A stretch of 64,000 nucleotides of DNA from Dictyostelium discoideum (Eukaryota). Positions 14,467 to 29,565 of this stretch are shown piece after piece. The stretch's first letter is position 1. Each line of letters opens with the position of its first letter. The notes under the pieces were generated by a model. It made no database searches. It worked only from the letters and a program-made list of their open reading frames with translations, and was not told the origin of the DNA. The position numbers and the translations under genes are program-made. The stretch is taken from positions 5,312,001 through 5,376,000 of the forward strand of contig CM000152.2 of assembly GCA_000004695.1 (NCBI GenBank). Reading direction: 5' to 3'.

Positions 14467-16458
<1,992 letters not shown>

Positions 16459-16695
16459 TGAAGTTAACTTTTAATGTGTTTTGAAAAGAAAATAAAACAA
16501 ATTAAAAATTTAAAAAAAAAAAAAATTTAAAAAAAAAAAAAAAATTAAAAATTTTAATACCATTTTTTTGACATTGTTCAAATAATTTTTTGGAGATATT
16601 TGTGGCCCAAAGTTAATTTAAAAAGGTAAAAAATCAAAATTTATTTGTGTCCTTTTTTTTTTTTTTTATTTTATTTTTTTTTCTTTTTTTTATTT

Positions 16696-16726
<31 letters not shown>

Positions 16727-16851
16727 GATTTCTTTTTTTAAAAAAACCAACGGGCTTATATAAATACACATAATTAAATTTTTTTTTTTTTATTTTTTTT
16801 ATTTTTTTTTAATATCCTTTCCTCTATAATAATTTAATTGCATATTATAAT

Positions 16852-18706
16852 ATGGAAGAATCAAATAACAATAATTTTTTATTTTCACCAGATTATATTT
16901 GGTCTCAATTACTTGAAAATAATAATAATAATTATAATAATAATTATAATAATATTAATAATAGCATTAATGAAAATTTACTAAATGAATTGAATAGTTT
17001 TCAAAATACAGGAGTATTTGATTTAGATACAAATATAGAACAGCAGCAACAACAACAACCAACTGAAATTCAACAACAACTACAAAACTATCAAGAATTC
17101 CAACAAAAAAAATATCAAGAACGTCAAGAACAATATCAAATTCAATATCAACAATCATATATAGAACCTTTAAATTTTAATGAAACATATAATAATGAAA
17201 CATATTGTAATATAATACCACAACCGCCCCAGGTTGAACAACAACAAGAACAAGAACAAGAACAAGAACAACAACAAAAACAACAACAACAACAATATAT
17301 TGAAAAACAAATACAAGAAATAATAAAAATACCAGAAAAAAGGCAAACACTTAACCAGATTCCTATTGAAATGATGCAACATAATTTCTTTAATACACCA
17401 AAACTTGATCAACAACTACTCTCAAATTATTCAGACTTTTTTAAAACAAATCCAATTTTACCTACAACCACAACAACAACAACAACCACAGCAATAACAA
17501 TAGATCAACAACAACAAAACCATATTGATAATCAGTCATTAAATAATTCAAACACAAAAACATCAAAGAACCAACAAAAAGATAATAATTTACCAAAAAA
17601 AAAGAATTTATCCTATGATATCACAAAAATAACATTTAATAATAATAATATAGAAAAAAAGAGAGACCAAACTGAATCAAGTAAAAATTTTAGAGAAAAA
17701 AAAAAGGAGTATGTAAAAGAAATTGAAAGTAAAATTTTAGCTCTAACCCTTGAAAATGATAAACTTAAAAAAGAAAATGATTCATTAAAAGTATTTTTAT
17801 AAAAATTAATAATTAATAATAATAAGAAAAAAAAAGAAAGATTATTAACAAAAAATACTTTATTTATTATATAATTAGACTATTAATGGATCAAATTTAA
17901 TGAGACCAGAACCAGAATCAATTAATATGATAATGGAATGTAAAAAAATTATAAAAAAACTGGAAAAAGCATTAATTGATAATGATGAAAGATCATTAAT
18001 TTATTTATTATATCATTATCATAGTGAAACATCAAAAAGGTATTCATTAGTAGAAATTGAAGTTGATAAAATTGCAAACCCATATTCACAAATAAAATTA
18101 AAGTTAGCAGGTTATATTCAAAATCCAACAACTTTAGATATTTTTGATGGTAATTTTAATAATAATAATAATAATAATGGTAATAAAGAAGAAGAAGAAG
18201 AAATATCATGGTTTATAAAATATAAAAATGAAGCAAATCTTACAATTGAACAATCAAATAAATTAGATTTATTACGTAATCAACATGGTTTAATTTTTGA
18301 AACCTTATTAAAAGAAAGAAAACAATTGGATAATGAAATTTTAAAAGTTTTTAATGAAATTATAATTGCTAGTTACGATGGTTCAAATGCAAATTTAATT
18401 AGTGATAAAGGATTTGAATTAAAGAGTAAATTGAAATCATTAAAAATGAAAATCATTTCAAGTTTAAATTTAAATTTAGATACATTCTCATCAATTAGTT
18501 CCATTTTATTACCAAAACAAGAAGCATTACTTTTGGTTAGAGCTCATTTATTTGGTTCAAGTAAATTAAATCCTCAAATGGATTTTTTAAATAATGTTTG
18601 GACAAATATAATCTCTTCAAATTCTTCATGTAGTGTTTTCGAAATTTTAAATTCTTTAAAGGAATTTTCCGATTTAGAAAATTTAGAATTAAATAAAAAT
18701 TCATAA
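16852..18706 (+). CDS. bZIP transcription factor, paralog A. Exon 1 is 16852-17790, intron 17791-17878, exon 2 17879-18706.
   Basis: Basic region plus leucine zipper at the end of exon 1 ([38 protein letters not shown]). Donor AAA|GTATTT, acceptor aattag|ACT, phase 0. Gln-rich N-terminal half. TATA-like tatataaata about 85 bp upstream. Confidence 0.75.
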
Positions 18707-19008
18707 TTAATAATAATAATAATAAATAATAATAATAATAATAATATAAAATAAATTTTTTTTTTTTATACAAACTCAAAATTAATTAGTAACTCTTTCA
18801 TTGAATAATGAAATTTTAACATAATGATTTGTTGTTTTAACCGAAAAATTGCGTGCAACTTTTTTTTTTTTTTTTTTTTTTTTTAATTTTTTTTTCTTTT
18901 TTTTTTTTTTTTATACACAAAATAAAAAAAAAATGAATCAGTTTATTTTTAGTTATCTATTTTTAAAATATTTAAACTATTCTGTAAATAATTGAATATA
19001 AAAAAAAT

Positions 19009-19421
19009 ATGGAAGAATCCAATAATTTTTTATTATCTCCTGATTCCATTTGGTCTCAACTATTAGAAAATTCATATGCATTAAATGAAATCAATTGTTT
19101 TCAAAGTTTTGGAACAATTGATAATAATAATAATAATTATAGTAATAATAATAAAAATGGTAATGAAGAACTCTCACAACCAACTGAAATTCAACAACAA
19201 TTACAAAATTATCAGGAATTACAACAACAAAAATATCAGGAGCGTCAACAACAATATCAAACTCAATACCAACAACCATATATAGAGCCAATTTTTGAAA
19301 TCGTAGTTACTCAACAAGATCAACAAGAACTAATTCCACAACAACAACAACAAGAACAAGATCAACAAGAAGATCAAGATCAAGAACAAGAACAAGAACT
19401 ACAACAACAACAACAACAACT

Positions 19422-19509
<88 letters not shown>

Positions 19510-19842: not shown

Positions 19843-20438
19843 TTATTAAATGAAAAACAAATTGAATCAACATCAAAAATAAAAAGAATTAATTTAGGTT
19901 ATGATATTACAAAAATAACATTTAATAAAATTGAAAAAGGTAAAAGAAATCAAACTGAATCAAGTAAAAATTTTAGAGAAAGAAAAAAAGAATATATTAA
20001 AGATATTGAACTTAAATTAAAAGAATTAACAATTGAAAATGATAAACTTAAAAAAGAAAATGATACATTAAAGGTATATATATATATATATATTTATTTA
20101 TTTTTTAAAAATAAAAAAATATTAATTAACTTTTAATTTATTTTTTTAAAAAAAAAAAAAAAAAAGAAAATAGGAATTGAAATAATGAGATCAGAACCAG
20201 AATCAATTAATATGATAATGGAATGTAAAAAAATTATAAAAAAACTTGAAAAAGCATTAATTGATAATGATGAAAGATCATTAATTTATTTATTATATCT
20301 TTATCATAGTGAAACATCAAAAAGATATTCATTAACAGAGATTGAAGTTGATAAAATAATAAATCCATATTCACAATTAAAATTAAAATTAGCAGGTTAT
20401 ATTCAAAATCCAACAACTGAAATTTTAGATATTTTTGG

Positions 20439-20508
<70 letters not shown>

Positions 20509-21054
20509 GATGATAATGAAGAAGAAGAAATATCATGGTTTAAAAAATATAAAAAAGAAGCAAATCTTACAATTGAACAATCAAATAAATTAGATTTATT
20601 ACGTGATTATCATTGTTTAAAATTTGAATTACTTTTAAAAGAAAGAAGAGAACTTGATAGAGATATTAAAAAATTATATAATGGTATTGCATTAAGTGGA
20701 TTTGATTTAACACCAAGATCGTTAGCAAATTGGGATATTGATAAACAAATTGAAACTACAAATAAATTAAATCTATTGAAAATTAAAATCATTTCAAGTT
20801 TAAATTTAAATTTAGATACATTCTCATCAATTAGTTCAATTTTATCACCAAAACAAGAAGCATTACTTTTGGTTAGAGCTCATTTATTTGGTTCAAATAA
20901 AAAAAATCCTCATATTGAAATTTTAAATAATGTTTGGACTGGTTTAATTTCTAAATCTTCTTCTCCAAGTTTTTTTGAAATTGCAAAACTTTTAAAAGAA
21001 ATGTCAGATTCTGCCAATGCTAAAATTATGGAAGATTATTTATATAAAAAATAA
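19009..21054 (+). CDS. bZIP transcription factor, paralog B. Exon 1 is 19009-20073, intron 20074 to about 20166, exon 2 about 20167-21054.
   Basis: Same architecture as paralog A: [21 protein letters not shown]..., ...[38 protein letters not shown] | ...[38 protein letters not shown]... Long (CAA)n and (AAT)n tracts. Confidence 0.75.
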
Positions 21055-21540: not shown

Positions 21541-21551
21541 GGAATCGAACC
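21541..21551 (-). promoter_or_regulatory. exB box downstream of tRNA-Ser copy 1
   Basis: ggaatcgaacc is GGTTCGATTCC on the minus strand, about 30 bp past the tRNA 3' end. Confidence 0.6.
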
Positions 21552-21580
21552 TCTGATCTAATTTAGTTCTGTAAAAAGAT

Positions 21581-21661
21581 CGACACCTGCAGGGTTCGAA
21601 CCTGCGCCTCCGAAGAGAACGCCTTAGCAGGGCGCCGCATTAACCACTTTGCTAAGGTGTC
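21581..21661 (-). tRNA. tRNA-Ser (anticodon GCU), copy 1
   Basis: Minus strand GACACCTTAGCAAAGTGGTTAATGCGGCGCCCTGCTAAGGCGTTCTCTTCGGAGGCGCAGGTTCGAACCCTGCAGGTGTCG. 81 nt with long variable arm, anticodon loop CT-GCT-AA, A box TAGCAAAGTGG, B box GGTTCGAACCC. Confidence 0.85.
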
Positions 21662-22846
21662 ATCACAAAAGTTTTGTTTGACTCACTTTATTAAAATGTC
21701 ATCTCAAACTATTTGGGGTGATACACTTTGCTTAGGTGTCACCGTGACAACAACATCAAACTCAACCTTCAATTCAAACAAATTATCCAGAACAACAACA
21801 ACCAAAATTAACACAATTAACATCAATTGAGATCTCTGCAAACTTGATTTTAGTAAATTTCTCTAAAATTTTATTTTTTTTACTTTTTTTTTCCTAGAAA
21901 TTAATTTTCAAATTTTTTTTTTTTACCTTGGAGGTTACCAAGATTTATTTTTTGTAACCTTCCAGTTTTTTTGAGTTTTTTTGAGTTTTTTTTATTTTTT
22001 ATTTTTTTTTTTTCTTAGTGTGTGTTGTTATAAAACAAATGTGTTCATATTTGTTTTAATTTTCCTCTCTTTTTTTTTTTAGTGTTTATTTATTTTTATT
22101 TTGTGTTCATTCTAACCAAGTCAAATATAAAAAGAAAAGAAAAAAAAAAAAAAGAAAGAAATAGAAAAAAAGAAAAGAAAAGAAAAGAAAAGAAAGAAAT
22201 AGAAAAAAAGAATAAAAATAATAATAAAAAAACTTTACAAATCATGTGAAAATAATAATAATAGTAATAAATCTGCTTTTATAAATTTTTTTTATTAAAT
22301 TTAAATAAAAAAAACAAATTAAGAATATATTTTTTTTGTTTTATTTTTAATTTTGAAATTTCATTTGATTTTTTCTCAAATAAAAGTAAATTATTTTTAT
22401 TTAAAATTAATTATTTGTTATCGAATAAAAAAAAAATTTAATTCAAAATAAATGAAAGTGACAATTCAAATTTATTATTTTTAAATTTAGTTTATTTTTA
22501 AAATTTACTTTTATAAACATTAAAAAGACTTGTTTTCAATTCAATGTAAAAATTTTCAATAAAAAAAACATTCATAATAAATTTTAGATATTGTCGATAA
22601 CATCAACTTATTATTTAAAAATAATCATGTTAAAAATTTTAATGTCTATTAAATATTTATTTTATTGATGACCTCACTACTTTCAAAATTTAATGCAGTA
22701 AATGGAGATCGAAGTAATAAACAAACAATCTATAAAAAATCTTGTTCAGGTTTGTTAATCTTGTTAATTCGTATTTTAATTTAAAATAATATATTTGATT
22801 AATTATTTTTATTATTTAATACTTCCCTCAGAACATTTATCTACAT

Positions 22847-22885
<39 letters not shown>

Positions 22886-23079: not shown

Positions 23080-23090
23080 GGAGTCGAACC
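23080..23090 (-). promoter_or_regulatory. exB box downstream of tRNA-Ser copy 2
   Basis: ggagtcgaacc is GGTTCGACTCC on the minus strand, 32 bp past the tRNA 3' end. Confidence 0.6.
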
Positions 23091-23121
23091 TGTTATTATG
23101 TTTTGAATTTTGGAAAAATTT

Positions 23122-23202
23122 CGACACCTGCAGGGTTCGAACCTGCGCCTCCGAAGAGAACGCCTTAGCAGGGCGCCGCATTAACCACTTTGCTAAGGTG
23201 TC
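23122..23202 (-). tRNA. tRNA-Ser (GCU), copy 2
   Basis: Identical 81-nt sequence to copy 1. Confidence 0.85.
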
Positions 23203-23250
23203 ATCGAAAATAAAATGGGAGATACACTTTCCTAAGGTGTCATTGAATCA

Positions 23251-23527
23251 AAAAATAATCAGATCGAAAAAAACAAACAACAACAACAATCTCTTTTTTT
23301 GATTATTTCATTTTTCATATAAAAAAGACTTAAAAAACAAATAAATAAATAAATAAACTATTTTAAAAAGCCATCTTTTTACTTTATTGTAATTTATTAT
23401 TTGTTTCGTTTTGAGAATTTTGCGTAGCAAAATTTTCAAAAAAAAAGCAAAAAATAATCAGATCGAAAAAAACAAACAACAACAACAATCTCTTTTTTTG
23501 ATTATTTCATTTTTCATATAAAAAAGA

Positions 23528-23535
<8 letters not shown>
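23251..23535 (+). repeat. Two 86-bp direct repeats (23251-23336 and 23450-23535) flanking a 113-bp spacer, followed by a 44-nt poly(A) (23531-23574). Begins exactly 48 bp upstream of tRNA-Ser copy 2.
   Basis: aaaaataatcagatcgaaaaaaacaaacaacaacaacaatctctttttttgattatttcatttttcatataaaaaagacttaaaaaa occurs twice. Position is the canonical TRE5 integration distance. May be TRE5 5'-terminal A-module-like repeats or an independent insertion. Confidence 0.5.
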
Positions 23536-23574
<39 letters not shown>

Positions 23575-23578
<4 letters not shown>

Positions 23579-25280
23579 GGAACCAAGTTAATTAGAAAAT
23601 TTCCAGATTTTTAACTTTTTAAAGAAAAATAAAAAAGATAGAAAGAAAATAAAATGAAAATCCCAAACAACACCCCAAATATTAAGCAACACAAATGCCT
23701 ACAAAAAATAAGCGAAATTGTGGATAAAACTCAATTAAAAAAAAAACAATTCAAATACGTCATAAACATCAATCACGAACCAGACGATAAAATAAAAAAA
23801 GATTTAGAAAAAAGTTTGGACAAAAAAGATGTTTTAATCAAAAGTAATAATACATTCAAAATTCTCACAGACAGTATTAGTACAGTAATCTATTTTGTAA
23901 ATATGTTTGATGCAGAATTAAAAGGACAATTTATAACCACTATAAGACCAAAAAATATGTATACAGATTTTGATTGGTATAAATCACTCACAGAAATAGA
24001 ATGGGTAATAGAAAATGAAGGATGTAAACTAATTAAATCAGAAATTAAAGGCGAAACTCTAATTATCAAAACAGTGAAAAGAGTCGTAGAAGAATTTGAC
24101 ACTATCATTGAACTAGACAATCTAACATTAATTGGACACTCCAACAAAGGATGGAGAGATCAAACCTCATTACCAGAAAATCAAGAAGAAAACAAAAATA
24201 AAAAACAATCAGATGAACAACAACCACAATCTACATCAGAACAAATACCAAAACAAGGAAAAAGAACAATCATTATCCCACCAATCACATCCTCATCTAA
24301 TGATAAAACATTTATGGCCCTAGATGATACAGCTCAAAAGGTAATAGAAGCATCACTAGAAAACGTAGATGAACTAACAAGAATAGAGAATGAGATCAAT
24401 ACACAATCGATAAACAATCAAGAAATTAAAACAAAATCAGAAAAACCTATCGAACCACCATCTCCATACAATACACCAATAAAACAACACGGCGAAACAA
24501 AGGGACTAACAACGGAAGAAAAACTTAGAGAGGCAAATGATATCTTCGACTTCACCAGCCCAAACACTGATGCAATAAGAAAAATAGAATTCCCACTTTC
24601 AATCCCTTCAAATCAATGGTTCTTCTCCTCTCCAATAAAACATATCATGAGTTTCAGCCCAACCTATGGGCACCATCGAAAATTATCGATTCACCAAGTA
24701 AATTGTTAAACACACCAAAAAAGAAACAACAAGACAAAACAAACAAGACCAACAAAACACCAGTCAAACCAAAATTGGGTGAATATGGACAAAAAAGCAT
24801 AAAAACAAAAATGGATGAAGATATAGACAACTTCAACAAGGAAATTCTAAAACAAATCAATAAATCAAAAAACCCCACAAACACACAAGACCAACAACAC
24901 AACGAACAAAGTAAAGATCAGTTAGAAGACAAAATAAACCAGAAACTTCAAAAGGTAGATAAAAATCTACCCCAAATAAAACTATAAAGAAAAACACAAT
25001 AAGAATAGGTGTTTGGAACGTCCAAGGATCCAACACCATCCAATCTGCCAGCATAATAAACACCGTTTTAGACAACAACAAGCTGGACGCAGCACTTCTA
25101 ACTGAAACAAATATAAAAACAAATAAAATTTACTCAATAAATCAACAATATAAAAACAAAATAACACACCACGCACCAATTGATAAAACAGGACAAGGGG
25201 TGTCACAAATCATCATCAACACCCGCAATAGAACTTCCTAAACATCTCAAAAAATACAATAATTCACTCAGTACTTTTTA

Positions 25281-25340
<60 letters not shown>
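23575..25340 (+). mobile_element. TRE5-type non-LTR retrotransposon fragment. Short 5' leader, ORF1 (23654-24709, continuing after a +1 frameshift to 24987, about 445 aa total), the start of the ORF2 endonuclease domain (about 25000-25250), then a 60-nt poly(A) 25275-25340.
   Basis: ORF1 MKIPNNTPNIKQHKCLQKISEIVDKTQLKKKQFKYVININHEPDDK... ORF2 begins RIGVWNVQGSNTIQSASIINTVLDNNKLDAALLTETNIK, an APE-like IGxWNVxG motif. Location and orientation relative to the tRNA-Ser genes match TRE5 (DRE-like) elements. Assignment to the TRE5 family is from recalled knowledge. Confidence 0.6.
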
Positions 25341-25341
<1 letters not shown>

Positions 25342-25665
25342 CAAGTTAATCAGAAAAATAAAAAAGATAGAAAGAAAATAAAATGAAAATCACAAACAAC
25401 ACCACAAATATTAAGCAACACAAATGCCTACAAAAAATAAGCGAAATTGTGGATAAAACTCAATTAAAAAAAAAACAATTCAAATACGTCATAAACATCA
25501 ATCACGAACCAGACGATAAAATAAAAAAAGATTTAGAAAAAAGTTTGGACAAAAAAGATGTTTTAATCAAAAAGACCCTGTAAAAAAAAAAAAAAAATAA
25601 AATGAGATCTAGCATCTCAAGGAGAAGCAAATAATAATTGCGTTATCCAATTCAAAAAAAAAAAA
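25341..25665 (+). mobile_element. Second, internally deleted TRE5-type copy. 5' leader plus the first 65 codons of ORF1 (25383-25577) are joined directly to a 78-bp 3'-terminal module and oligo(A).
   Basis: Leader and ORF1 start are over 95% identical to 23589-23850. Junction atcaaaaag|accctgtaaaa. 3' module ...tgagatctagcatctcaaggagaagcaaataataattgcgttatccaattc(A)13 is identical to the mini-element at 27501-27590. Confidence 0.6.
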
Positions 25666-25968
25666 AGGTGTCATTGAATAAAATGGGATGATACACTTTG
25701 CTAAGATGTCATCGAAAACCAAATGGGTAATACACTTTGCTAAGCTGTCATCGAAAACCAAATGGGTAATACACTTTGTTAAGGTGTCATCGAAAACCAA
25801 CGGGTGATACACTTTGCTAATCTGTCATCGAAAAATATTTGGGTGGTAAACTTTGCTAAGGTGTCCACACAAAATATTTGGGTGATACACTTTGCTAAGG
25901 TTTCGTCGAAAAATATTTGGGTGATACACTTCGCTAAGGTGTCATTGAAAAATAAACCACCACAAGAC
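25666..25968. repeat. Tandem array of about 7.5 units of 38-40 bp. Each unit holds the revcomp of the first 17 nt of tRNA-Ser (including the A box) plus its immediate 5' flank.
   Basis: Units such as gatgtcatcgaaaaccaaatgggtaatacactttgctaag repeat. The same unit is present in 1-2 copies directly upstream of each intact tRNA-Ser gene. No complete tRNA is attached to this array. Confidence 0.8.
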
Positions 25969-27311
25969 TAATTTTTTGATAAATAATTTTTTTTTTATAG
26001 TTTTTATTGTTTTTTTTATTTTTTTTAAGAAAATGTGGCTGAATAATAATTTTTGAAACTATATTAAAATAAAAAATAATTAAAAAAAATACAAAAAATA
26101 AAAATAATCAGTAAAGTGATTTATATTTTTAATTTATAAAAAAATATAAAAAAAATGAATATACATTCTGCAAACTCGATTTGACTCCATTTGGTTTCTA
26201 ATTGTCTTAAAAATTATTTTTTTTATTTTTCCTTTTTTTTTTTCTTAATTTTTTAAAAAATAACAATAAATCTTACCCTATCAAAATTGTTATTTTTTTT
26301 TCTATTTTAGGATTTATTACATATTTAATTAATATAATTACTTTATTACTATTGTATTTTACAGTTGTAGTTTTTTTTATATAAGATGGCTCGAGATGAG
26401 TAACTGGACTGTCTAATTTTAGGAATTTAAAAAAAAAAATAAAAACTATTCAGAGAACCCAATTTCATTTTTAATTTTTTTTTTTTTTTTAGGGAGTTTA
26501 ATTCAAGAACAATTATAAACCATTTTAACTAATAATAATATAAGTTTTTTTTTTTTTTTATAATATTTTATAATATAAGTTGTTTTTTTTATTTTATTTT
26601 ATTTTTTTAATTATAATTAAATTTGTTTTTGAAATGCAGTTTTATTTAAAAATTCTAAGGTTTTTTCAATAAACTTTATTGAAAAATTTAGGGGAGTTAT
26701 ATGGCCATATATTTTCCTTAATGTCATGGTGCATAGATAAATCTTTCCTTTCTCTGACTTTAGATTAATATTGATTATTTTTATTTCCCTTTGGATATGA
26801 TAGTATTGATATGAACATTGATGTTTTAATAATACACATTTTTCAGCATTTCTATTGTAAAACAACACTTCTATTTAATTTAATGTCACATTTCATCAAC
26901 ACCAATATTTAACTTAAATTTTTTTTTTTTTTTTTTTTTTTTTGATTTTTTTTTTTTTTATAATTTTATTTTAATTTTTTTATATAAAAAGATATAATTT
27001 TTTTTTTTCATTTTATTATTAATTTAAAAAGGTAAAAAAAAAAAAAAAACATTTAGTAAAAACTTTACTTAAATAATCATGTTAAAAATTAATATCTATT
27101 AAATATTTATTTTATTGATGACCTCATTAAATTCAAATTTTAATACAGTCAACGGAGATCGAAGTGCCTGTATCTTAAATTGTGCTCATTAACAAACAAT
27201 TTATATAAAATCTTGTTCAGATTTGTTTATCTTGTTAATTCGTTTTTTATTTTTGTTACTAACATACTATTGATCTACAAATAGTAATAGTAAGCATTTT
27301 ATTTTTTCCAA

Positions 27312-27322
27312 CAGGAATCGAA
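27312..27322 (-). promoter_or_regulatory. exB box downstream of tRNA-Ser copy 3
   Basis: ggaatcgaacc is GGTTCGATTCC on the minus strand. Confidence 0.6.
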
Positions 27323-27365
27323 CCTGTTATTCAGCTTTGAATGTTGGGAAATTTTTGCAAAATTT

Positions 27366-27446
27366 CGACACCTGCAGGGTTCGAACCTGCGCCTCCGAAG
27401 AGAACGCCTTAGCAGGGCGCCGCATTAACCACTTTGCTAAGGTGTC
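27366..27446 (-). tRNA. tRNA-Ser (GCU), copy 3
   Basis: Identical 81-nt sequence to copies 1 and 2. About 170 bp of 3' flank (27066-27245) is homologous to the flank of copy 2 (22605-22770), so these copies sit in a segmental duplication. Confidence 0.85.
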
Positions 27447-27493
27447 ATCCAAAACCAAATGGGAAATACACTTTGATAAGGTGTCATCGAAAA

Positions 27494-27590
27494 ATCCAAT
27501 GACCCTGTAAAAAAAAAATAAAATAAAATGAGATCTAGCATCTCAAGGAGAAGCAAATAATTGCGTTATCCAATTCAAAAAAAAAAAAAA
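27494..27590 (+). mobile_element. Mini TRE5-type element (3'-terminal module plus oligo(A) only, about 94 bp). Flanked by a 13-bp target-site duplication gtgtcatcgaaaa (27481-27493 and 27591-27603), inserted 48 bp upstream of tRNA-Ser copy 3.
   Basis: Sequence gaccctgtaaaaaaaaaataaaataaaatgagatctagcatctcaaggagaagcaaataattgcgttatccaattc(A)14 is identical to the 3' module at 25574-25665. A perfect direct repeat of the flank sits on both sides. Confidence 0.75.
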
Positions 27591-27806
27591 GTGTCATCGA
27601 AAACCAAATGGGTGATAAACTTTGCTAAGGCGTCATTGAAAAATATTTGGGTGATGATTTTTTGTGAAATTTCGGCTGGAAGATAAAGAATTGCTTCATA
27701 AAATTTTAAATAAAAATGCTTTATTACCATTAATTAAAATTATAAATAAATAAAACAAATTTCAAAATTTAAATATAATATTACACTTTATTATTTTTAT
27801 TTTTAT

Positions 27807-29565
27807 TTATTTTTTTGATTTTTCAATTAATATCTTTGGTTCTTGTTTTTGTTGAGATAAAATTAATTGATATCTTGATAAAATTTCATCATTAAATTGA
27901 TTATCATCATTATCAATTAAATTTTGTTTTTTCTCTGAAATTAAAGTAATTATAGTATCTGTATATTTCATTAATAAATTTGAATCAATTTTTAAATTTT
28001 TAAATAGTTGTAATTCATTATTATTATTATTATTATCATTAAATGATGAAACTTCTTGAAGTATAATTTTAAAATCATCAAATCTTGAAGATATAAAGTT
28101 ATTAAAACTTGATAAATATTCTTCTTTACCACTTGAAAAAGTTACTTGATTTGAAATATTTTGAAGTATTTTACTCACTAGTGTTAAAGTTCTTCTAACA
28201 TTTGAATTTGGAGCAACTGAAATTAAACCCAATGCCTCTGGTGAAAAGATAGCAGGATTAACGAATCTAAGGAAAAAGAAACCACCAACTGATTTAATAT
28301 TATCATTTGGATATTTCTTTTCAACCAATTGATTAATGATTTGACAAATTTGACGAATTTCAATTGGTAATTGATCGGCTAACGATGCTTTAATAGCTGT
28401 TATGAATGATGAACAAAAGAATGATAATTGAATTGCATTTTGTTCGACTTCAGCCTCTGTTATACCACCTTTGCTTGGATCAACCTCCAAATTGATATCA
28501 TTTTTAATCATTGACATAATTAATGGACATAATGCCTCTTTTAAATAGCCAAATCCAATGGTTTTAAATATTGATACAATCACTTTAGTTGATAATGAAT
28601 CAGTTCTAAATAAAACTTTAGCATCATTAGTTTGTTCAATTTCAATCGATGCTAAATCTCTAACAATATCAATTAATTCTTTACCACTTTCACTACAATT
28701 TGAAAAATAATACATTATTGCTTTACCAAAATCATCTGAAATTAATTGTTTTGATAATTTTATAATTAAACTATGATTATTTTTAATTAAATACTTTTTT
28801 TAATAATAATAATAATAATAATAATAAAATTAATTAATTAAAAATCTAATAAAAATATATATATATATATTATTTATTTAAATTTAAAACTTACATTTGT
28901 TAATGAAGTAAATGAATAATAACAAAGTTGAATATGAATATCACCTCTTTTTTTTGCTTTTTTATTTGGATTTTTACCTTCAAGTGGTATCCAAATATCT
29001 CTTTGACCTTTAGTTTTATATTCATCAATATTAATTCTAACTAATCCCATAAAATCATCTTTACTAAATTTATCTTCATCATACATTAAAATTGAAATAA
29101 TTTGTGAATTTTCAATTACATCACTTTTATTTTTTTTTTTTTTTTTTTTTTTTGGAAAAATTAAAACATAATATTATGTTAAAAAATAAATTCAAGAGTT
29201 ATTTTTTTTAAGGGAGTCGCATGGAAAATAAAAAAATAAAGTAAAAAAAAAAAAGAGGCGACAAACACACCAGCGTCGCATAAAATTACTTTTCACCACT
29301 TTAATGCCAAAAAATTTTTACATCCAACCACCCTTAATTTTTTTTCAAAAATAAAATATATTATATAAATATATAAAAAAACTTACAAAACAAATTCTTC
29401 ATCTTTCCAAACTGGATTCAAAGTTTTATAAATAACTTCAGTTTTAAAAGTTTTTGAATCTTTTGTTGATATTAAACAATATGGATCACTTGTTGTTATA
29501 TCACATATTAATGTATCCCTTGCTCCTAAAATTTTTATTACTACTTTTCCAAACGGTATTGTCAT
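27807..29565 (-). CDS. C2-domain Ras GTPase-activating protein. Exon 1 is 29565-29387, a long intron 29386-29125, exon 2 29124-28897, intron 28896-28794, exon 3 28793-27807.
   Basis: Exons 1-2 form a C2 domain (MTIPFGKVVIKILGARDTLICDITTSDPYCLISTKDSKTFKTEVIYKTLNPVWKDEEFVF|DVIENSQIISILMYDEDKFSKDDFMGLVRINIDEYKTKGQRDIWIPL). Exon 3 is a RasGAP domain with the FLRFVNPAIFSPE signature. Donors T|GTAAGT and AAT|GTAAGT. Phases consistent. Confidence 0.75.

What the first reader, a model, noticed from the sequence alone, without database searches (positions are those of the whole stretch)
27481..27603. Textbook mini retroelement insertion 48 bp upstream of a tRNA gene with 13-bp TSD
A 94-bp element consisting only of the TRE5-type 3' module plus oligo(A) is bracketed by perfect gtgtcatcgaaaa direct repeats and lies exactly 48 nt from the 5' end of tRNA-Ser copy 3. 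Its 5' end faces the tRNA. The same 3' module terminates the internally deleted copy at 25574-25665, so non-autonomous, trans-mobilised copies are present.
Basis: partly seen in the sequence, partly recalled or inferred. Interest (0 to 1): 0.6.

Follow-up and report, generated by a model that had tools for sequence, protein, structure and literature searches.

The report
Severely 5'-truncated TRE5-A copy upstream of tRNA-Ser
A 97-bp stump of the known Dictyostelium retrotransposon TRE5-A (its 3' C-module plus an A-tail) lies at that element's usual landing spot 47 bp upstream of a tRNA-Ser gene; it is real and clean, but it is an ordinary dead-on-arrival copy and not a new kind of mini element.

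Summary
The window is Dictyostelium discoideum, AX4-type. Perfect 13-bp repeats (27481-27493 and 27591-27603) bracket a 97-bp insert made of 7 nt of filler, 76 nt of TRE5-A C-module and A14.

The C-module part has 1 substitution in 76 aligned positions against the 3' end of the neighbouring TRE5-A.2 (23249-25666). It keeps the predicted three-stem 3' structure.

The 5' end of the insert faces tRNA-Ser(GCU) (27366-27446, minus strand), with 47 nt between them. Position, orientation and duplication length all match published TRE5-A behaviour.

The repeats do lie inside a 39-bp tandem array. Removing the insert and one repeat restores an exact 39-bp unit, so they are a true target-site duplication.

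An independent AX4-type assembly carries the element identically. Two other isolates have the orthologous tRNA without it. Those isolates carry a second stump, cut at a different point and with a 15-bp duplication. This argues for random 5' truncation during target-primed reverse transcription and against a SINE-like family.

Verdict: a known kind, of low interest. The side observations are the 39-bp array of tRNA 5'-end copies, which varies between strains, and a truncation point that coincides with the TRE5-A.2 deletion breakpoint.

The parts
27366..27446 (-). tRNA-Ser(GCU) copy 3, the Pol III gene that targeted the insertion; +1 G is at 27446
   Evidence: Rfam RF00005 at 61.1 bits, 27366-27446. 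ARAGORN places it at 27365-27447. It is 81/81 identical to copy 2.
27314..27324 (-). External B box (GGTTCGATTCC), 42 bp downstream of the tRNA 3' end
   Evidence: Read directly. The same motif follows all three tRNA-Ser copies. PMC3159450 reports external B boxes about 41 bp downstream of 66% of D. discoideum tRNA genes.
27481..27493 (+). tRNA-proximal copy of the 13-bp target-site duplication GTGTCATCGAAAA (positions -35 to -47)
   Evidence: It lies in unit 2 of the 39-bp array.
27494..27500 (+). 7 nt (ATCCAAT) of filler at the 5' junction, origin unresolved
   Evidence: It matches neither the TRE5-A.2 B/C junction (AATCAAAAA) nor the full C-module of a relative (CTCTTTTAGA). The same 7-mer lies near the 3' end of the C-module, but the chance of such a match is 0.02-0.06. 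PMC5391098 reports frequent non-templated nucleotides at TRE5-A 5' junctions.
27501..27576 (+). 3' part of the TRE5-A C-module, the segment retained in TRE5-A.2, with the predicted three-stem structure
   Evidence: 75 matches, 1 mismatch and 2 indels against 25574-25653. The fold is -11.7 kcal/mol with z = -3.3, the same architecture as the TRE5-A.2 copy. PMC3159450 shows that the 3'-terminal 87 bp and its stems are essential for retrotransposition.
27577..27590 (+). Oligo(A) tail, A14, uninterrupted
   Evidence: It appears identically (as T14) in L006.
27591..27603 (+). Distal copy of the 13-bp target-site duplication
27429..27655 (-). Three 39-bp units forming the target context: 27429-27467, 27468-27493 plus 27604-27616, and 27617-27655. 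Each unit copies tRNA nt +1 to +18 plus about 21 nt of 5' flank.
   Evidence: Pre-insertion reconstruction prints three in-phase 39-nt units. TRF finds the same unit at 25665-25956 with period 39 and 7.5 copies.
23249..25666 (+). Neighbouring TRE5-A.2 (A-A-B-ORF1-ORF2 stub-B-C-A13), 46 nt upstream of tRNA-Ser copy 2. It is flanked by GGTGTCATTGAAT at 23236-23248 and 25667-25679, and it supplies the reference C-module.
   Evidence: The ORF1 is 97-98% identical to D. discoideum AX4 proteins. The B-module is duplicated, 23519-23843 matching 25286-25572, and the A-module is duplicated. The duplication was checked. The architecture matches the published AB-ORF1-BC layout (PMC3159450).

Best explanation
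The feature is a dead-on-arrival, extremely 5'-truncated insertion of the non-LTR retrotransposon TRE5-A (formerly DRE), made by target-primed reverse transcription at tRNA-Ser(GCU) copy 3.

Inferred sequence of events:
1. The TRE5-A ribonucleoprotein was positioned by the Pol III factors on the tRNA gene. The published mechanism is ORF1 protein binding TFIIIB.
2. The minus strand was nicked about 34 nt upstream of tRNA +1.
3. The exposed 3'-OH primed cDNA synthesis on the oligo(A) and C-module of a TRE5-A RNA.
4. Reverse transcription stopped after only 76 nt.
5. The plus strand was nicked 13 nt further out, at -47/-48.
6. The cDNA end was joined with 7 nt of filler.
7. Repair duplicated the 13 nt between the two nicks.

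The copy has no promoter and no ORFs, so it cannot propagate. It leaves behind only a C-module, which in the literature is a weak antisense promoter and the CbfA-binding module. Here the C-module points toward the tRNA.

Shown here: the identity of the module, the A-tail, the duplication, the position, the orientation, the polymorphism between isolates, and independence from the neighbouring TRE5-A.2. Inferred: the order of nicking, the cause of early termination, and the source RNA.
For: Module identity. The core has 1 substitution in 76 aligned positions against the C-module of a bona fide TRE5-A.2 in the same window. That element has an AX4-type ORF1 and the B-module duplication, which is specific to TRE5-A (PMC5006619).

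Insertion hallmarks match published TRE5-A values.
- The duplication is 13 bp. Published lengths are 10-16 bp (PMC9012585).
- There are 47 nt to tRNA +1. Position 47 is the published primary site, and 59% of genomic copies lie within 47+/-3 (PMC5391098).
- The 5' end faces the tRNA, as is always the case (PMC5391098).
- There is filler at the 5' junction, which is frequent (PMC5391098).
- 5' deletions are described as typical of TRE5-A elements (PMC3159450).

The duplication is real. Removing the insert and one repeat restores an exact 39-bp unit in phase with its neighbours.

The insertion is independent of the neighbouring TRE5-A.2.
- Flanks of copy 2 and copy 3 are only 74-83% identical, while the C-modules are 98.7% identical.
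- Each locus has its own duplication sequence, and the differences appear in both copies at each locus.

Presence and absence. The element is identical in a second AX4-type assembly. It is absent from the orthologous tRNA in two other D. discoideum isolates.

A second stump. L005 14821-14913 and L004 14662-14753 hold one with only about 38 nt of C-module, A15-17, about 8 nt of filler and a 15-bp duplication at the same unit phase. Its 5' end is different, as random truncation predicts.
Against: - The truncation point (GACCCTG at 27501) falls within 1-2 nt of the TRE5-A.2-specific B/C deletion breakpoint. Purely random termination would rarely produce this. It hints at a preferred stop or template-switch site, or at a later deletion.
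- The origin of the 7 nt ATCCAAT is unexplained.
- PMC3159450 notes that 5'-truncated de novo copies often come with target-site deletions rather than clean duplications.
- No TRE5-A.1 or TRE5-C reference from AX4 could be retrieved, so assignment to TRE5-A rather than TRE5-C rests on two comparisons: 98.7% identity to the neighbouring copy, against the published 78% identity between the A and C families.
Confidence: 0.8

Rival explanations
1. Deletion after insertion. A complete TRE5-A (for example an A.2) first inserted here with a 13-bp duplication. An internal deletion then removed everything between the extreme 5' end and the start of the 87-bp C segment, leaving a solo C-module.
For: The breakpoint coincides with the B/C junction of TRE5-A.2. 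In the neighbouring A.2, the motif AATCAAAAA occurs both at the 5' terminus (23246-23254) and just before GACCCTG (25565-25573), which could mediate such a deletion. The observed junction AATCCAAT-GACCCTG loosely resembles the predicted AATCAAAAA-GACCCTG.
Against: The junction differs from the prediction by 2 substitutions and 1 indel in 9 nt, while the adjacent 76 nt carry a single substitution. The second stump has a different endpoint and also carries filler, which fits truncation on arrival. 5' truncation is the documented common outcome (PMC3159450).
Confidence: 0.1
2. Pseudo-duplication. The two 13-mers belong to two different units of the 39-bp array, and the truncated element inserted with a target deletion of 26 bp (or 26 plus a multiple of 39). 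There is then no true duplication.
For: The repeats are inside a tandem array whose units share this motif. Target deletions are frequent with 5'-truncated TRE5-A insertions (PMC3159450).
Against: Neighbouring units are only about 82% alike. In the window's arrays, no adjacent pair of units is identical over these 13 nt. Collapsing the repeats gives exactly 39 bp. The apparent length of 13 lies in the canonical 10-16 range. The 5' junction is at the canonical position 47, whereas the published deletion case moved the junction closer to the tRNA, to 28 bp.
Confidence: 0.04
3. SINE-like mini element. The C-module plus A-tail is a self-standing non-autonomous unit that is transcribed and repeatedly mobilised in trans by TRE5-A.1 proteins.
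For: The piece retains the whole 3' segment and the stem-loops shown to be essential for retrotransposition (PMC3159450). Its 5' end matches the start of the minimal C segment kept by the mobile A.2. LINE-derived SINEs that share a 3' end with their LINE are known elsewhere, for example suffix and the F element (PMC1868783).
Against: No promoter module is present, and no A or B box is visible in the 97 bp (read directly). There is only one such copy in 64 kb. The only other stump found has a different 5' end and lacks the first stem. Omitting ORF1 from tagged elements cut their activity by 99.5% (PMC3159450).
Confidence: 0.04
4. Segmental duplication of an occupied site. The tRNA-Ser copy 3 locus was copied from copy 2 after the TRE5-A.2 had inserted there, and then lost the interior of the element.
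For: The two loci are colinear: tRNA, unit, duplication, element, duplication, units. BLAST joins C-module, tail and flank, matching 25571-25731 to 27498-27655 at 87%.
Against: The flanks are 74-83% identical but the C-modules 98.7%. The duplication sequences differ between the loci (GGTGTCATTGAAT against GTGTCATCGAAAA), and each difference is mirrored in both copies within a locus. That would require parallel mutations.
Confidence: 0.02

Closest known systems
5'-truncated genomic and de novo copies of Dictyostelium TRE5-A (DRE), an APE-type non-LTR retrotransposon targeting tRNA genes
   Same: C-module 3' end, oligo(A), a 13-bp duplication (published range 10-16 bp), position 47 upstream of tRNA +1, 5' end facing the tRNA, and filler nucleotides at the 5' junction.
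   Different: The truncation is extreme, with only 76 nt of element sequence. It comes with a clean duplication, whereas the literature stresses target deletions for truncated de novo copies. The endpoint coincides with the A.2 deletion breakpoint.
TRE5-A.2, the non-autonomous AB-ORF1-BC derivative mobilised in trans by TRE5-A.1
   Same: Shares exactly the roughly 87-bp C segment that A.2 retains. A copy sits 4 kb away at the paralogous tRNA-Ser, at the same relative position.
   Different: A.2 keeps the A-module promoter, the B-modules and ORF1, and it is demonstrably mobile. The 97-bp piece has none of these.
Dead-on-arrival 5'-truncated LINE-1, R2 and other non-LTR copies produced by abortive target-primed reverse transcription
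   Same: The same mechanism and the same hallmarks: the 3' end is retained, with an A-tail, a target duplication, a variable 5' endpoint and filler.
   Different: This one is site-specific (Pol III gene targeting) and not dispersed.
SINEs derived from a LINE 3' end (Drosophila suffix and the F element; eel UnaSINE1 and UnaL2)
   Same: A short unit consisting of the partner LINE's 3' recognition stem-loop region.
   Different: Those families have their own promoter or a defined 5' end and exist in many copies. No such evidence was found here.

Membership tests
TRE5-A (DRE) retrotransposon insertion | 3' end formed by the C-module | tested here: met
   27501-27576 against 25574-25653: 75 matches, 1 mismatch, 2 indels. 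It is 85.5% identical to the full C-module of a related isolate.
TRE5-A (DRE) retrotransposon insertion | Oligo(A) tail at the 3' end | tested here: met
   A14 at 27577-27590.
TRE5-A (DRE) retrotransposon insertion | Target-site duplication of about 10-16 bp | tested here: met
   A perfect 13-bp repeat. Collapsing it restores a 39-bp unit. The published range is from PMC9012585.
TRE5-A (DRE) retrotransposon insertion | Integration about 47+/-3 bp upstream of a tRNA gene | tested here: met
   47 nt lie between tRNA +1 (27446; Rfam) and the first element nucleotide at 27494. The published window is from PMC5391098.
TRE5-A (DRE) retrotransposon insertion | [quoted passage not shown] | tested here: met
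   The tRNA is on the minus strand to the left. The element is on the plus strand with its A-tail distal.
TRE5-A (DRE) retrotransposon insertion | Stem-loop structure in the last ~54 nt of the C-module RNA | tested here: met
   The predicted fold has the same three-stem architecture as the A.2 copy, with z = -3.3. The AAT deletion only shortens one loop. This is a prediction only.
TRE5-A (DRE) retrotransposon insertion | A- and B-modules, ORF1, and ORF2 (endonuclease and reverse transcriptase) | tested here: not met
   Nothing upstream of the C segment except 7 nt of filler. It is therefore a fragment of the family and not a functional member.
TRE5-A versus TRE5-C (both end in a C-module) | Closer to the TRE5-A C-module than to the TRE5-C C-module | tested here: inconclusive
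   It is 98.7% identical to the C-module of an element that carries the TRE5-A-specific B duplication. Published identity between the A and C families is 78% (PMC3159450). No TRE5-C sequence was available for a direct comparison.
SINE-like, trans-mobilised mini element | Own promoter (Pol III A/B boxes, or a Pol II module such as the A-module) | tested here: not met
   No A-module homology (BLAST). No A-box or B-box motif is visible in the 97-bp sequence (read directly).
SINE-like, trans-mobilised mini element | Multiple copies sharing one defined 5' end | tested here: not met
   There is one copy in the window. The only other stump, in L004 and L005, begins about 38 nt further 3'. A whole-genome census was not possible with these tools.

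The most novel reading that the evidence does not exclude
The truncation point of this stump coincides to within 1-2 nt with the 3' breakpoint of the TRE5-A.2 B/C deletion. This could mark a discrete stop or template-switch site for the TRE5-A reverse transcriptase at the 5' edge of the roughly 87-nt recognition module, in which case solo C-modules would be a recurrent product and not a random one.

A related possibility concerns the 39-bp array of tRNA 5'-end copies. Each unit recreates the -47 geometry, so the array could act as an expandable landing pad. The stumps at -47 (AX4) and -161 (other isolates) would then be records of how the array has changed.
Probability: 0.08. Interest if true: 0.4.

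Novelty: already known. Interest (0 to 1): 0.15.

Why it matters
As found, it matters little. It is one more truncated copy of a well-studied element in a model-organism reference genome, and it behaves exactly as published.

Its modest value is as a clean natural specimen. It shows the full set of target-primed reverse transcription hallmarks in 123 bp. It shows that two paralogous tRNA-Ser genes were hit independently at the same nucleotide position. Together with the empty orthologous sites, it dates the insertion to the AX4 lineage.

The surrounding 39-bp minisatellite of tRNA 5'-end copies varies from 3 to about 10 units between isolates. It is the more unusual feature and may deserve its own look.

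Tried and rejected
Look-ups that failed:
- Exact-protein look-ups of AX4 TRE5-A ORF1 proteins (window ORF1, P0001, P0002) found nothing on record. No AX4 TRE5-A.1 reference C-module could be fetched. A full C-module from a diverged isolate (L002) was used in its place.
- Four older papers could not be read: PMC311061 (requested as Glöckner et al. 2001, Genome Res, an id recalled from memory), PMC1636787 (Siol et al. 2006, Mol Cell Biol), PMC11147220 (Winckler 1998, Cell Mol Life Sci) and PMC1352341 (requested as the Eichinger et al. 2005 genome paper, id recalled from memory). Published counts of truncated genomic copies could therefore not be cited.
- Pfam found nothing significant on the 81-aa ORF2 stub or on ORF1.

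Origin of ATCCAAT:
- The same 7-mer occurs near the 3' end of the C-module (25645) and in ORF2 (25038). A random 7-mer is found in the 90-nt body with probability 0.02-0.06, so no template-switch claim is made.
- Reading ATCCAATG as a degenerate extension of the duplication (target CCAAATG) needs two indels and was dropped.

Hypotheses rejected:
- Segmental duplication of an occupied site, on the contrast between flank and element identity and on the locus-specific duplications.

Searches with nothing to add:
- Rfam found only the three tRNAs in 21-28 kb.
- A literature search for the 39-bp array found nothing relevant.

Full report
**What is in the sequence**

The window is Dictyostelium discoideum. 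An ORF at 23654-24709 is 97-98% identical to AX4 proteins. The RasGAP/C2 exon at 27807-28715 is 302/302 identical to AX4 XP_640438.1.

Three identical tRNA-Ser(GCU) genes lie on the minus strand. Rfam places copy 3 at 27366-27446. ARAGORN's ends are one nucleotide wider on each side, but the Rfam ends give a G1-C72 acceptor stem and U8/G10.

To the right of copy 3, which is upstream of the tRNA, the 13-mer GTGTCATCGAAAA occurs at 27481-27493 and again at 27591-27603. The 97 bp between the two copies are:
- ATCCAAT, 27494-27500
- a 76-nt block, 27501-27576
- A14, 27577-27590

The 76-nt block aligns with 25574-25653 with one substitution, a 1-nt difference in A-run length and a 3-nt AAT indel. 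No other copy of this block exists in the window.

**What the reference block is**

The segment 25574-25666 is the 3' end of a 2.4-kb element at 23249-25666. That element has:
- two A-module copies
- a B-module containing the ORF1 start
- ORF1 and a short ORF2 stub
- a second B-module (23519-23843 matches 25286-25572)
- the C block and A13

It is flanked by GGTGTCATTGAAT on both sides and begins 46 nt upstream of tRNA-Ser copy 2.

This is the published architecture of TRE5-A.2, AB-ORF1-BC. The B duplication is peculiar to TRE5-A (PMC5006619). The A.2-specific 72-bp B/C deletion leaves the 3'-terminal 87 bp of the 137-bp C-module (PMC3159450).

A related isolate (L002) carries the undeleted version. 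It has about 100 extra bp between the B end and ...TTTTAGAGACCCTG.

**Is the 13-bp repeat a target-site duplication or just the tandem array?**

All three tRNA-Ser copies are preceded by a 39-bp tandem array. Each unit copies tRNA nt +1 to +18 plus about 21 nt of 5' flank.

Four observations favour a true duplication:
- Deleting the insert and one 13-mer restores exactly three in-phase 39-nt units.
- Array units are only about 82% alike. No adjacent pair in the window's arrays is identical over these 13 nt.
- A length of 13 is inside the published 10-16 bp range (PMC9012585).
- The 5' junction is at the canonical position. A target deletion, which the literature associates with truncated copies (PMC3159450), would have shortened the distance.

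I therefore accept a true duplication and give the pseudo-duplication rival about 4%.

**Position and orientation**

There are 47 nt between tRNA +1 and the element. [quoted passage not shown]

PMC5391098 states the following:
- Position 47 is the primary integration site.
- 59% of the 98 genomic copies lie within 47+/-3.
- Orientation is strictly 5'-to-5'.
- Non-templated nucleotides at the 5' junction are frequent.

PMC3159450' deletion typical of TRE5-A elements. Every diagnostic feature that a 3' fragment can show is therefore met.

**Independent insertion, not a copied locus**

Copies 2 and 3 are colinear (tRNA, unit, duplication, element, duplication, units), which raises the possibility of a duplicated occupied site.

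The figures argue against this:
- The 47 nt upstream of the tRNA are 83% identical between the two loci.
- The distal flanks are 74-79% identical.
- The C blocks are 98.7% identical.
- The two duplication sequences differ at positions that are mirrored in both copies within each locus.

The targets had therefore already diverged when two similar elements inserted separately at the same relative nucleotide.

**Presence and absence**

An independent chromosome-level AX4-type assembly (L006, GCA_054883475.1) is 99.6% identical over 20 kb and contains the 123-bp structure exactly. The structure is therefore not an assembly artefact.

In two other D. discoideum isolates (L004, L005), the orthologous tRNA next to the same RasGAP gene has 9-10 array units and no C-module. 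Paralogue copy 1 in the window is also unoccupied at -47.

**A second stump**

Upstream of the second tRNA-Ser in L005 and L004 there is another tiny TRE5-A remnant. It has:
- a 15-bp duplication, GTTGTCATCTCAAAA, at the same unit phase
- about 8 nt of filler
- only the last ~38 nt of the C-module
- A15-17

It is 161 nt from the tRNA, which equals 47 plus about three array units. Either the array expanded after the insertion or a pseudo-unit was targeted.

Its 5' endpoint differs from that of the AX4 stump, and it lacks the first stem. Variable endpoints with filler are what abortive reverse transcription predicts. They are not what a mini-family with a master copy predicts.

**Mechanism**

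The best explanation is target-primed reverse transcription that aborted after 76 nt. This is the dead-on-arrival outcome known for TRE5-A and for non-LTR elements in general.

The stump keeps the three-stem 3' structure because that end is copied first, not because it is functional. It has no promoter or ORF, and I find no evidence that it can move.

The literature describes the C-module as a weak antisense promoter and the CbfA-binding module. Here it would point into the tRNA gene, and any effect of that is speculative.

**Loose ends**

- Homology starts at GACCCTG, within 1-2 nt of the A.2 deletion breakpoint. This may be coincidence, a preferred stop site, or a sign of a later deletion between the AATCAAAAA motifs present at the A.2 5' end and at its B/C junction. 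I give the deletion rival about 10%.
- The filler ATCCAAT is unexplained. Its match to the C-module's own 3' end is not significant.

**Verdict**

It overreaches in implying a trans-mobilised mini element. This is a known kind of feature in a reference genome, and its interest is low.

Noticed in passing
window 21645-21745; 23185-23248 plus 25667-25956; 27429-27493 plus 27604-27655; L004 11790-12202; L005 11790-12130 and 14899-15058: Every tRNA-Ser(GCU) gene is preceded by a 39-bp minisatellite. Each unit copies the first 18 nt of the tRNA (including a near-consensus A box, TAGCAAAGTGT) plus about 21 nt of 5' flank. Unit number varies from 2.5 to about 10 between paralogues and between isolates, and unit variants differ between isolates. 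Both TRE5-A insertions sit in unit 2. No description was found in the searchable literature.
   Followed up: partly
L005 14821-14913; L004 14662-14753: A second, even shorter TRE5-A stump in two other D. discoideum isolates. It has about 38 nt of C-module, A15-17, about 8 nt of filler and a 15-bp duplication. It lies 161 nt upstream of a tRNA-Ser, which equals 47 nt plus about three array units.
   Followed up: yes
window 27501 versus 25573/25574: The 5' end of homology in the stump coincides within 1-2 nt with the TRE5-A.2-specific B/C deletion breakpoint. The motif AATCAAAAA occurs both at the A.2 5' terminus (23246-23254) and just before that breakpoint (25565-25573).
   Followed up: partly
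window 24670 (TRE5-A.2 ORF1): The window lacks one base relative to the independent AX4-type assembly L006 (GG-GCACC against GGTACACC). ORF1 is therefore frameshifted to 351 aa here but is an intact 444 aa in L006. Several other differences, including A-run lengths, are confined to the element. This is either a repeat-assembly error or a strain difference.
   Followed up: partly
window 27314-27324, 23081-23091, 21543-21553 (minus strand): External B boxes (GGTTCGATTCC or GGTTCGACTCC) lie about 30-45 bp downstream of all three tRNA-Ser genes, as described for two thirds of D. discoideum tRNA genes.
   Followed up: no
window 22619-22782 and 27071-27253; 20000-21010 and 17717-18674: Further diverged repeats (78-79% identity) lie downstream of tRNA-Ser copies 2 and 3 and further left. 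They may be remnants of TRE3-type elements or part of the paralogous duplication. A T32 run at 22849-22880 may be the tail of a minus-strand element.
   Followed up: no
L004 11965-12105 and 14856 onward (gene 15417-19487): In one isolate the arrays are interrupted by sequences that begin CTGTAATGAAT. One of them leads into a Ty3/gypsy-type polyprotein gene (RVT, RNase H, integrase). This is probably a tRNA-targeting LTR retrotransposon and a solo LTR.
   Followed up: no
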